Program-made: the position numbers and the translations under genes
The notes under the pieces: generated by a model
Databases searched by the model: none
The model's input: the letters and a program-made list of their open reading frames with translations, nothing else
Told to the model about the DNA's origin: nothing
Shown: piece after piece, positions 25,394 to 26,845 of the stretch
Layout of the letters: the number at the start of each line of letters is the position of its first letter
Position numbering within the stretch: the stretch's first letter is position 1
Assembly: GCF_055900595.2 (NCBI RefSeq)
Contig: NZ_CM148325.1
DNA: 64,000 nucleotides
Reading direction: 5' to 3' (one strand)

Positions 25394-26845
25394 TTATTTA
25401 TCAGTAGTCAAAACGGTAGCTTGCGGGACGGATGTACCGAAACGGTTTCCGACCAGGAAAGCCAGCAAACTTAGTAGTAACGAGGGCACGATAGGGTGGA
25501 AGCCCAGGTACTGAATATTCAGCGTCGCGAGTACGGCATACAGTACGCCGCCAACGATCATCGCACTTAGCGCGCCTTTGGCGTTGGCGCGTTCCCAGTA
25601 AAGACCCAGCACCAGCGGCCACAGGAAAACGGCTTCCAGCCCACCGAAGGCCAGCAAATTCAGCCAGATGATCATTTCTGGTGGCTTCCAGGCGGCAAGC
25701 AGCAGCAACGCACCGAGAACCAACGTGATCACCGCCGACATCCGCTTCAGACGCGTCTCGTTTTGCATTTGATCCGGACGGATATTCAGATAGAGATCTT
25801 TAATGATCGTAGCGGAACTTTGCAGCAACTGGGCATTGATCGTCGACATGATCGCAGCCATAGGTGCAGCCAGGAAGATCCCGGCAGCAAACGGTGGCAG
25901 CACTTTTACCATCAACGTCGGGATCACCAGGTCCGGTACGGTGAGATCGGGGATCACCGCCCGACCTAACGCTCCGGCCAGGTGCATACCGAACATCAGG
26001 ATTGCGACCACAATCGTACCGATGATGATCCCCCGATGTACGGCTTTGCTGTCTTTATAAGAGATACAGCGCACCGCAGTATGCGGCAGGCCAATCACGC
26101 CAAAACACACCAGCACCCAGAACGACGTCATAAACGCAGGTGACAGAATATCGTCAGCGCCTTGTGGCGTAACCAGTTGCGGATCGATGGTTTGCAGCGT
26201 CTCTACTGCATTGCTTAAGCCGCCAGCAGCATGGACTACGCCAATAAGCAGCACAATGGTGCCAATCAGCATCACCAACCCTTGCATGGTGTCGTTCAGC
26301 ACGCTGGCGCGAAAGCCGCCAAAGGCGGTGTAGAGCGCAATGCTGATGCCAAAAATCAGCAAACCTGTTTCATAAGGGATACCCGCCGCGGTTTCCAGCA
26401 GGCGCGCACCGCCGATAAACTGCACGGTCATCGCACCAACGAACGCAACCAGCAAACTCAAACTCGCCAGCCACACCAGCAGGCGACTCTGGTAGCGGGC
26501 AAACAGCATATCGTTCAGCGTCACCGCATTGTAGCGGCGCGCGAGAATCGCGAACTTCTTGCCGAGAATACCGAGCGAAAGCCAGACCGCAGGTAGCTGA
26601 ATCATTGCCAGCAATACCCAACCCAGGCCGTATTTATAAGCAGCTCCTGGCCCGCCGATAAACGAACTGGCACTGATATAGGTCGCGGTGAGCGTCATCG
26701 CCAGCACAATACCGCCCATAGAGCGGCTACCGAGGAAATACTCATTAAGGAAGGTGCCGGTGCTCCGTTTACGCATCGCATAAACAGAGATACCGAACAC
26801 CACCACCAGATAGGCGACCAGCGGTAGAATCACTTCAAGCTGCAT
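25394..26845 (-). CDS. panF: sodium/pantothenate symporter
   Basis: 483 aa from [18 protein letters not shown]-family multi-pass transporter. Confidence 0.93.

What the first reader, a model, noticed from the sequence alone, without database searches (positions are those of the whole stretch)
26835..26845. Several gene pairs overlap or abut, implying translational coupling
Overlaps or zero-gap junctions are seen at panF/yhdT (11 nt), mreC/mreD (1 nt at 44181), kinase B and the unknown protein (4 nt at 34620-34623), aroE/yrdB (4 nt), dprA/smg (29 nt) and the island ATPase/permease (TAAATG at 32647-32652). The island operon is organised as tightly as the core operons, which argues that it is a functional, expressed unit and not decaying cargo.
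Basis: seen in the sequence. Interest (0 to 1): 0.2.

Follow-up and report, generated by a model that had tools for sequence, protein, structure and literature searches.

The report
Routine overlaps between neighbouring operon genes
Neighbouring E. coli genes here do overlap or touch as described, but at the rate normal for this species, and the inserted sugar island is the already published, experimentally working D-tagatose locus.

Summary
All six junctions exist at the stated coordinates: dprA/smg -29, aroE/yrdB -4, yhdT/panF -11, tagB/tagC 0, tagD/tagE -4 and mreC/mreD -1.

It is not unusual. Six of 40 co-directional pairs overlap (15%), which matches the published prokaryotic norm. The curated K-12 annotation carries the same core overlaps.

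The "island" (27170-35666) is the published tag locus of E. coli Nissle 1917, tagK-tagR / tagYABCDE. It lies between accC and yhdT and occurs in 1,419 of 5,426 complete E. coli genomes. Deletion, complementation, qRT-PCR and dRNA-seq have shown it to work in Nissle. Here all eight genes are intact and under strong purifying selection (pN/pS 0.04-0.06).

So the conclusion "functional, not decaying" is right, but gene spacing is weak evidence for it.

Translational coupling is plausible and untested. Each downstream gene has a Shine-Dalgarno sequence inside the upstream gene, stronger than average for the window. The yhdT/panF 11-nt overlap and its GGAGGA are invariant in 79 species. The tagB/tagC junction stays between -4 and +4 in seven taxa.

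Nothing here is new. One modest lead is that YhdT (DUF997) may be a PanF partner.

The parts
26835..26845 (-). yhdT/panF 11-nt overlap (ATGCAGCTTGA: panF ATG 26845-26843, yhdT TGA 26837-26835)
   Evidence: The overlap length is identical in 79 of 79 species loci.
26851..26856 (-). panF Shine-Dalgarno GGAGGA, encoded by yhdT codons Leu74-Glu75-Asp76
   Evidence: TGGAGGA is invariant in 79 loci. Glu75 is GAG in 75 of 75 distinct sequences, while the other invariant Glu codons vary at the third position.
1839..1867 (+). dprA/smg 29-nt overlap; smg SD GAGGAGGG at 1825-1832
4280..4283 (+). aroE/yrdB GTGA 4-nt overlap; yrdB SD AGGAGGA at 4264-4270
32647..32652 (+). tagB (ABC ATPase) stop abutting tagC (permease) start, TAAATG; SD AGGAG at 32637-32641
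   Evidence: The 61-nt junction is identical in 1,415 of 1,420 E. coli genomes that carry it. The junction is 0, 0, -1, -1, +4 and (-4 or +50) in six other taxa.
34620..34623 (+). tagD (tagatose kinase) / tagE (DUF4432) ATGA 4-nt overlap; weak SD GGGAAG at 34607-34612
   Evidence: Identical in 1,279 of 1,419 genomes. The overlap is -1 in a Klebsiella-like locus, and tagE is absent in Trabulsiella, Serratia and Yersinia.
44181..44181 (+). mreC/mreD 1-nt overlap (TAGTG); mreD SD GGGAGGG at 44169-44175
27170..35666 (.). tag (D-tagatose) locus: tagK 27170-28105/28126 (-), tagR 28137-28967 (-), tagY 29309-30163, tagA 30199-31089, tagB 31150-32649, tagC 32650-33639, tagD 33661-34623, tagE 34620-35666 (+)
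   Evidence: Papers PMC9720028 and PMC12226905.
28968..29308 (.). tagR-tagY control region: Preg TTCAAA-16-TATAGT (29013-28986, minus strand), Ptag -10 TAGTTT 29233-29238, tagO1 29240-29258, tagO2 29264-29282 (minus strand)
   Evidence: matched to the elements described in PMC12226905.
28124..28136 (-). Probable true tagK start, GTG at 28126-28124, plus the resulting 10-nt tagR-tagK spacer GAGGGGTTTT

Best explanation
These are ordinary intra-operon junctions of an E. coli chromosome. In each pair the two genes lie on one transcript. The downstream start codon sits within a few bases of the upstream stop, or 11-29 nt before it. The downstream ribosome-binding site is encoded inside the end of the upstream gene.

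The most likely working is as follows. A ribosome finishing the upstream gene stays on the mRNA, or keeps it open, and starts the downstream gene. This links the two protein outputs (termination-reinitiation). It is most likely for the 0, -1 and -4 junctions: tagB/tagC, mreC/mreD, aroE/yrdB and tagD/tagE. The -11 and -29 junctions probably mix short backward reinitiation with independent initiation on their strong Shine-Dalgarno sequences.

What is shown: the coordinates, the intact genes, the SD sequences, and the conservation of the yhdT/panF and tagB/tagC junctions. What is inferred: the coupling itself.

The 8.5-kb island is the known, working D-tagatose locus. An ABC transporter (TagABC) imports the sugar, TagD kinase makes tagatose-6-phosphate, host PfkA makes the bisphosphate, and TagY aldolase cleaves it. 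The TagR repressor and CRP control expression.
For: - Junctions and intact ORFs: and the K-12 annotation.
- SD strength of the seven downstream genes is -8.5 kcal/mol against -5.0 for the other genes, p = 0.010.
- yhdT/panF: an 11-nt overlap in 79 of 79 species loci, with ATG in 77 and GTG in 2. TGGAGGA is invariant, including at synonymous sites. The DUF997-panF pair also overlaps by 4 and 8 nt in distant lineages.
- tagB/tagC: the junction stays between -4 and +4, with a conserved CAGGAG, in E. coli, a Klebsiella-like locus, Trabulsiella, Serratia, Yersinia, Faunimonas and probably Raoultella. It is identical in 1,415 of 1,420 E. coli genomes.
- Literature: 4 of 5 native E. coli -4 pairs were coupled, and coupling decays within about 20 nt (PMC6728339, PMC10666635). 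Pairs at -8..+10 are 4.5-fold enriched for subunits of one complex. TagB/TagC and MreC/MreD fit that pattern.
- Island identity and function: 96.9% identical to the Nissle locus, same gene order and site, and operators and promoters present. pN/pS is 0.04-0.06 with all eight genes intact in five alleles. Published work reports deletion and complementation, more than 40- to more than 1000-fold induction, and only two transcription start sites.
Against: - No experiment addresses coupling for any of these pairs. Neither tag paper mentions overlap or coupling.
- Strong SDs would also support independent initiation.
- Predicted local RNA structure at the junctions is no more stable than in shuffled sequence (z from -1.26 to +1.21). 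So the unfolding type of coupling has no support.
- -11 and -29 lie outside the -8..+10 range that the experimental papers treat as predictive.
- qRT-PCR in Nissle shows tagY, tagA and tagB induced more than 1000-fold and tagC, tagD and tagE only more than 40-fold. Expression is therefore not uniform across the tagB/tagC junction at the RNA level.
- tagD/tagE has only a weak SD (-4.3 kcal/mol), and tagE is missing from several related loci.
Confidence: 0.7

Rival explanations
1. The overlaps have no coupling function. They are by-products of compact genomes: stop codons lost and start codons shifted. Each downstream gene is started independently by free 30S subunits on its own strong Shine-Dalgarno sequence.
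For: All seven downstream genes have a recognisable SD, and five of them a strong one. No masking structure is predicted. bioBF, a native E. coli -4 pair, showed no coupling. The overlap frequency in the window equals the genomic background.
Against: The exact 11-nt yhdT/panF overlap is fixed in 79 species, while neighbouring synonymous sites vary freely. The tagB/tagC junction stays within -4..+4 across taxa whose TagD is only 59-87% identical to this one. Four of five tested native pairs were coupled, and most needed their SD for reinitiation.
Confidence: 0.25
2. Some overlaps, especially -29 and -11, are annotation artefacts caused by start codons called too far upstream.
For: Long overlaps are often mis-called starts. 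In this window PGAP probably mis-calls tagK, by 21 nt in the other direction. panF also has a second in-frame ATG 6 nt upstream.
Against: smg has GAGGAGGG 6 nt before its ATG (-12.5 kcal/mol), and panF has GGAGGA 5 nt before the annotated ATG. The curated K-12 annotation agrees. The panF start position is conserved in 79 species.
Confidence: 0.04
3. The island is inactive or decaying cargo in this particular strain, despite its tidy layout.
For: Ha et al. note occasional pseudogene calls for tagE or tagK in a few B2 strains. tagE has the most relaxed pN/pS, 0.12-0.40. One NCBI record has a fused TagD-TagE call.
Against: All eight ORFs are intact here. Promoters and operators are present. pN/pS is 0.04-0.06 over 134-200 synonymous changes. 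The Nissle allele works experimentally.
Confidence: 0.03

Closest known systems
tag locus (tagK tagR / tagY tagA tagB tagC tagD tagE) of E. coli Nissle 1917 and phylogroup B2 (Ha et al. 2022, PMC9720028; Park et al. 2025, PMC12226905)
   Same: Same chromosomal site between accC and yhdT. Same eight genes, order, orientation and gene lengths. Same 341-bp divergent control region, with Preg, Ptag -10, tagO1 (1 mismatch) and tagO2 (exact). 96.9% nucleotide identity.
   Different: This is a rarer allele: only 8 of 5,426 complete genomes are at least 99% identical. It differs from Nissle by about 10% at synonymous sites. The Ptag -35 reads TTTTTA rather than TTTTTG.
Experimentally coupled E. coli overlapping pairs hyfH-hyfI, astD-astB, ydbH-ynbE and menD-menH (Huber et al. 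2019 and 2023)
   Same: Co-directional genes with a stop/start overlap (ATGA type) and a Shine-Dalgarno sequence inside the upstream gene. aroE/yrdB and tagD/tagE have exactly this -4 geometry.
   Different: None of the pairs in this window has been tested. Three of them overlap by 11 or 29 nt, longer than any tested native pair.
Sinorhizobium meliloti-type tagABCDE cluster (ABC transporter, tagatose kinase, tagatose-6-phosphate epimerase)
   Same: Homologous SBP, ATPase, permease and kinase genes in the same order. In the alphaproteobacterium Faunimonas the kinase overlaps its downstream gene by 4 nt.
   Different: There the gene after the kinase is a GatZ/KbaZ-like protein. Here it is a DUF4432 protein, and a class II aldolase (TagY) routes the sugar through tagatose-1,6-bisphosphate.
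SGLT2-MAP17, a sodium:solute symporter with a small membrane partner
   Same: PanF belongs to the same SSS family as SGLT. YhdT is an 80-residue membrane protein always encoded immediately upstream of panF.
   Different: No sequence relationship exists between YhdT and MAP17. No structure or interaction data exist for YhdT. This is an analogy only.

Membership tests
Overlapping co-directional gene pairs coupled by termination-reinitiation | The two genes are co-directional and adjacent, with stop and start overlapping or within about -8..+10 nt | tested here: met
   tagB/tagC 0, mreC/mreD -1, aroE/yrdB -4 and tagD/tagE -4. yhdT/panF and yhdE/rng at -11 and dprA/smg at -29 fall outside this range.
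Overlapping co-directional gene pairs coupled by termination-reinitiation | Both genes are on one transcript | tested here: inconclusive
   There is no room for a promoter or terminator at these junctions. For the tag operon, dRNA-seq in Nissle found only one start site upstream of tagY. No transcript data were examined for this strain.
Overlapping co-directional gene pairs coupled by termination-reinitiation | A Shine-Dalgarno motif for the downstream gene lies inside the upstream coding sequence | tested here: met
   All seven have one. Binding energies range from -4.3 to -12.5 kcal/mol against the 16S 3' end.
Overlapping co-directional gene pairs coupled by termination-reinitiation | Translation of the downstream gene depends on ribosomes reaching the end of the upstream gene | not testable with these tools
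   This needs premature-stop reporter constructs or ribosome profiling. The synthesis-rate tables I looked for were not available.
E. coli tag (D-tagatose) locus | Located between accC and yhdT, with the eight genes tagK, tagR, tagY, tagA, tagB, tagC, tagD, tagE in the published order and orientation | tested here: met
E. coli tag (D-tagatose) locus | High sequence identity to the Nissle locus, including the Preg and Ptag promoters and the tagO1 and tagO2 operators | tested here: met
   96.9% identity over 8,651 nt. Preg hexamers are exact. tagO2 is exact and tagO1 has 1 mismatch.
E. coli tag (D-tagatose) locus | Confers growth on D-tagatose and is induced by it | not testable with these tools
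   Shown for the Nissle allele only. Intact ORFs and a pN/pS of 0.04-0.06 are consistent with function here.
Ribose-type sugar ABC importer | A single ATPase of about 500 aa with two ABC domains, a BPD_transp_2 permease and a Peripla_BP_4 binding protein | tested here: met
   Pfam hits.
DUF997 (YhdT) / PanF gene pair | A DUF997 gene immediately upstream of, and co-directional with, a PanF-type sodium:solute symporter gene | tested here: met
   The window, 79 Enterobacterales loci, and three distant lineages with PanF 45-63% identical.

The most novel reading that the evidence does not exclude
YhdT (DUF997, 80 aa, function unknown) is an obligate small partner of the pantothenate symporter PanF. 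On this reading the fixed 11-nt overlap, with the panF ribosome-binding site written into YhdT's conserved acidic tail, exists to make the two membrane proteins together.

The hints are:
- The pair is conserved down to 45% PanF identity, mostly overlapping.
- A Keio yhdT deletion behaves like a panF deletion in a synthetic-lethal screen. The authors attributed this to the overlap (PMC5120140).
- The related transporter SGLT2 needs the small membrane protein MAP17 (my own knowledge; only shows that PanF matches SGLT chains).
Probability: 0.3. Interest if true: 0.4.

Novelty: already known. Interest (0 to 1): 0.12.

Why it matters
It matters little. The core overlaps are in the reference K-12 annotation. 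Short overlaps are a well-described, common feature of prokaryotic operons. The island is a published and characterised D-tagatose utilisation locus.

Three by-products have some practical use:
- A corrected tagK start (GTG at 28126).
- The finding that the tag locus replaces the whole accC-yhdT spacer. That gives yhdT-panF-prmA a different start codon, ribosome-binding site and upstream region in the roughly 26% of E. coli genomes that carry it.
- A testable suggestion that YhdT works with PanF.

Tried and rejected
- RNA folding of 103-nt windows around all seven junctions, to look for masked ribosome-binding sites. None was more stable than shuffled controls, so the unfolding model has no support here.
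- Ribosome-profiling or proteome data for the pairs. The Li et al. 2014 paper is not held. The divisome paper does not list MreC or MreD. The Mori et al. proteome tables show MreD and PanF as undetected.
- Counting the yhdT/panF junction across all E. coli genomes with a 61-nt megablast query. Only 1,272 genomes were returned, because polymorphisms break the 28-nt seed. I did not use that number.
- Looking for remnants of the K-12 accC-yhdT spacer in the island's flanking spacers. Local alignment scores were within the shuffle range.
- A literature search for DUF997 or YhdT function found nothing beyond the Keio screen remark. No solved structure exists.
- I considered an AlphaFold run of a YhdT-linker-PanF fusion. 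I dropped it because the tool reports no inter-chain contacts, so an interface could not be judged.
- I checked whether the island's spacing differs from the core operons. It does not significantly (p = 0.38).

Full report
**What the window is.** The 64-kb window is E. coli chromosome running from fmt/def through the rrnD operon, acrEF, fis, prmA-panF-yhdT, accCB, mreBCD, rng, yhdP and the aae genes to zapE. I mapped the RefSeq annotation of a 99.9%-identical genome, NZ_CP098223.1, onto the window by BLAST. All 54 complete CDS are intact, with proper start and stop codons.

**The observation.**
- dprA/smg overlap by 29 nt (1839-1867).
- aroE/yrdB by 4 nt (GTGA, 4280-4283).
- yhdT/panF by 11 nt on the minus strand (ATGCAGCTTGA, 26835-26845).
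- The island ATPase and permease abut with zero gap (TAAATG, 32647-32652).
- Kinase B and the following gene overlap by 4 nt (ATGA, 34620-34623).
- mreC/mreD share one base (TAGTG, 44181).

The 11-nt figure for yhdT/panF depends on panF starting at the second of two in-frame ATGs. That one is placed 5 nt after GGAGGA, and it is the start used in the curated K-12 annotation. K-12 MG1655 carries the same five core overlaps.

It also missed a convergent 25-nt overlap of yrdB with yrdA.

**Is it more than expected?** No. The window holds 40 adjacent co-directional pairs and 6 of them overlap (15%). Huber et al. 2019 report about 15% as the typical prokaryotic figure; binomial p = 1.0. Seven of 40 pairs fall in the -8..+6 class, against 707 of 2,987 genome-wide in E. 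coli; p = 0.46. The background distribution is itself far from random, with peaks at -4 and -1. This window is simply a typical sample of it.

**What the island is.** The 8.5 kb between yhdT and accC (27170-35666) is the tag locus described in E. coli Nissle 1917 (Ha et al. 2022; Park et al. 2025). On the minus strand it carries tagK (a PfkB kinase) and tagR (a DeoR repressor). On the plus strand it carries:
- tagY, a class II tagatose-bisphosphate aldolase;
- tagA, tagB and tagC, the binding protein, double-ABC ATPase and permease;
- tagD, the tagatose kinase;
- tagE, a DUF4432 "aldose 1-epimerase family" protein.

Pfam domains agree with these assignments. The window copy is 96.9% identical to the Nissle locus, with identical gene lengths and junctions. 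The published control elements are present:
- Preg TTCAAA-16-TATAGT;
- Ptag -10 TAGTTT;
- tagO1 with one mismatch and tagO2 exact.

The island is present in 1,419 of 5,426 complete E. coli genomes.

**Is the island functional?** Published work on the Nissle allele shows the following:
- loss of growth on D-tagatose when the six-gene operon or tagD alone is deleted;
- rescue by a plasmid, and transfer of the phenotype to K-12, B and W strains;
- more than 40- to more than 1000-fold induction;
- only two transcription start sites in the region.

I compared the window with four other alleles: Nissle, O26:H11 11368, MS1718 and P15-25. All eight genes are intact in all five copies. The concatenated island genes have pN/pS of 0.04-0.06, based on 134-200 synonymous against 19-39 non-synonymous differences. 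The flanking panF, yhdT, accC and accB genes give 0.01-0.03. tagE is the most relaxed gene, at 0.12-0.40.

Its argument is weak, however, because gene spacing would persist in a recently inactivated operon. The island's gaps (35, 60, 0, 21, -4 and 31 nt; median 26) are nominally wider than those of the window's core operons (median 8). The difference is not significant (p = 0.38).

**Evidence bearing on coupling.**

Ribosome-binding sites. Every downstream gene has a Shine-Dalgarno sequence inside the upstream gene. Predicted pairing energies with the 16S 3' end are:

| Gene | Energy (kcal/mol) |
|---|---|
| smg | -12.5 |
| mreD | -10.8 |
| yrdB | -10.3 |
| panF | -9.3 |
| tagC | -6.9 |
| rng | -5.1 |
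| tagE | -4.3 |

Their mean is -8.5, against -5.0 for the other 47 genes (Mann-Whitney p = 0.010). This matches the published tendency for overlapping pairs to carry strong SDs.

Conservation of yhdT/panF. I retrieved 80 loci from different species with a YhdT profile, and 79 could be analysed.
- In all 79 the start codon sits exactly 11 nt before the end of the yhdT stop: ATG in 77 and GTG in 2.
- TGGAGGA is invariant.
- The Glu75 codon is GAG in 75 of 75 distinct sequences. The two other invariant Glu codons of yhdT vary freely at the third position (entropy 0.87-0.98 bits).
- The stop codon is always TGA.
- In more distant lineages, with PanF 45-63% identical, the DUF997 gene still directly precedes panF. 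The overlap is 4 nt in one, 8 nt in a second, and there is a 43-nt gap in a low-GC third.

Conservation of tagB/tagC.

| Taxon | ATPase-permease junction (nt) |
|---|---|
| E. coli (this window) | 0 |
| Klebsiella-like locus | 0 |
| Trabulsiella | 0 |
| Serratia fonticola | -1 |
| Yersinia wautersii | -1 |
| Faunimonas | +4 |
| Raoultella | +50 as called, -4 if an in-frame ATGA preceded by CAGGAG is used |

Within E. coli the 61-nt junction is identical in 1,415 of 1,420 carriers.

The tagD/tagE overlap is less conserved. It is identical in 1,279 of 1,419 E. coli genomes and is -1 in the Klebsiella-like locus. tagE is absent from the Trabulsiella, Serratia and Yersinia loci.

RNA structure. 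Predicted structure around the junctions is no more stable than in shuffled sequence (z from -1.26 to +1.21). Nothing suggests coupling by unmasking a buried ribosome-binding site.

**Most likely mechanism.** Published tests found that 4 of 5 native E. coli -4 pairs are strictly coupled and that coupling fades within about 20 nt. A recent review also notes coupling at -38 and -50 nt in phages. On that basis I think termination-reinitiation is likely for tagB/tagC, mreC/mreD, aroE/yrdB and tagD/tagE. For yhdT/panF, yhdE/rng and dprA/smg I expect a mix of short backward reinitiation and independent initiation.

TagB/TagC (one transporter) and MreC/MreD (my own knowledge: interacting cell-shape proteins) fit the published 4.5-fold enrichment of complex subunits among closely spaced pairs.

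All of this is inference. Neither tag paper mentions overlap or coupling, and I could not reach ribosome-profiling tables for the K-12 pairs. One caution comes from qRT-PCR in Nissle. It shows tagY, tagA and tagB induced more than 1000-fold but tagC, tagD and tagE only more than 40-fold. RNA levels therefore already differ across the tagB/tagC junction.

**Side observations.**
- Spacer replacement. The island does not sit inside the K-12 accC-yhdT spacer; it replaces all 108 nt of it. Homology to K-12 stops at the accC stop codon and resumes at the yhdT start codon. That start is GTG here, preceded by GAGGAGG, and ATG in K-12. The 108-nt spacer is the common state, found in 72 of 80 species loci. 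The tag locus occupies the same site in a Klebsiella-like contig, Trabulsiella, Superficieibacter and Serratia fonticola, but lies elsewhere in Yersinia wautersii.
- Possible read-through. No terminator-like site lies between tagK and yhdT. A block, GTTGCCGTAGAATTGCCCGTTTC, is conserved there across genera. In island carriers, yhdT-panF-prmA may therefore be read from Preg or from an island-borne promoter.
- tagK start. tagK probably starts at GTG 28126, 21 nt upstream of the annotated ATG, which has no SD. Homologues in five genera start at the corresponding position. The extended protein aligns to the NCBIfam tagatose-kinase model from model position 10. This shortens the tagR-tagK spacer from 31 to 10 nt.
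- yhdT deletion phenotype. A Keio yhdT deletion is synthetic-lethal with the pantothenate biosynthesis genes, just as panF is. The authors attributed this to the overlap. It could equally mean that YhdT is needed for PanF.

**Verdict.** The island is functional, which was already known and is better shown by experiment and by selection than by spacing. Coupling is plausible, best supported for yhdT/panF and tagB/tagC, and untested. Nothing here is new. The only lead with some novelty is YhdT as a possible partner of PanF.

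Noticed in passing
window 27078-27169 and 35667-35757 (island borders); K-12 locus L008 2268-2375: The tag locus replaces the entire 108-nt accC-yhdT spacer of K-12. Homology breaks exactly at the accC stop codon and the yhdT start codon, and the flanking spacers show no significant similarity to the K-12 spacer. In carriers yhdT starts with GTG (27077) behind GAGGAGG, instead of ATG. An in-frame ATG 18 nt upstream (27095) has no SD.
   Followed up: partly
window 27078-27169 (minus strand): No terminator-like site lies between tagK and yhdT. A block, GTTGCCGTAGAATTGCCCGTTTC, is conserved in E. coli, a Klebsiella-like locus (L089) and Trabulsiella (L090). yhdT-panF-prmA may be transcribed by read-through from Preg or from an island-borne promoter.
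   Followed up: partly
window 28103-28139 (minus strand): The annotated tagK ATG (28105) has no Shine-Dalgarno sequence. A GTG at 28126, behind GAGAGGGG, matches the N-termini of homologues in five genera and the NCBIfam tagatose-kinase model. TagK is then probably 318 aa, and the tagR-tagK spacer 10 nt rather than 31.
   Followed up: yes
loci L055, L070, L071, L080, L089, L090, L091 versus L092: The tag locus sits at the same accC/yhdT site in Superficieibacter, Trabulsiella, a Klebsiella-like contig and Serratia fonticola, but at a different site in Yersinia wautersii. In 72 of 80 species the site is empty, with a spacer of about 108 nt. Island dS (about 0.10) is similar to flanking core dS (about 0.12) within E. 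coli. This suggests an old resident exchanged by recombination through the conserved flanks.
   Followed up: partly
window 26835-27077 (yhdT); proteins P0254-P0368: An acidic C-terminal tail (D/E-L-E/D-D...) is conserved even in distant DUF997 proteins. So the Leu-Glu-Asp that encodes the panF SD may be constrained at both protein and RNA level. A Keio yhdT deletion phenocopies a panF deletion (PMC5120140).
   Followed up: partly
   Followed up: yes
protein P0122 (NCBI record), corresponding to window 33661-35666: One database entry is a 493-aa protein with PfkB and DUF4432 domains, 100% identical to TagD over 94% of TagD's length. It looks like a TagD-TagE fusion call, presumably from a frameshift or sequencing error at or near the ATGA overlap.
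   Followed up: no
window 25000-37600: Only 8 of 5,426 complete E. coli genomes are at least 99% identical to this stretch. accC and panF differ from four other strains by dS of 0.14-0.17. The window therefore comes from an uncommon lineage, and identity to the best-matching genome varies along the window (94.6-100% per gene), which suggests a recombination mosaic.
   Followed up: no
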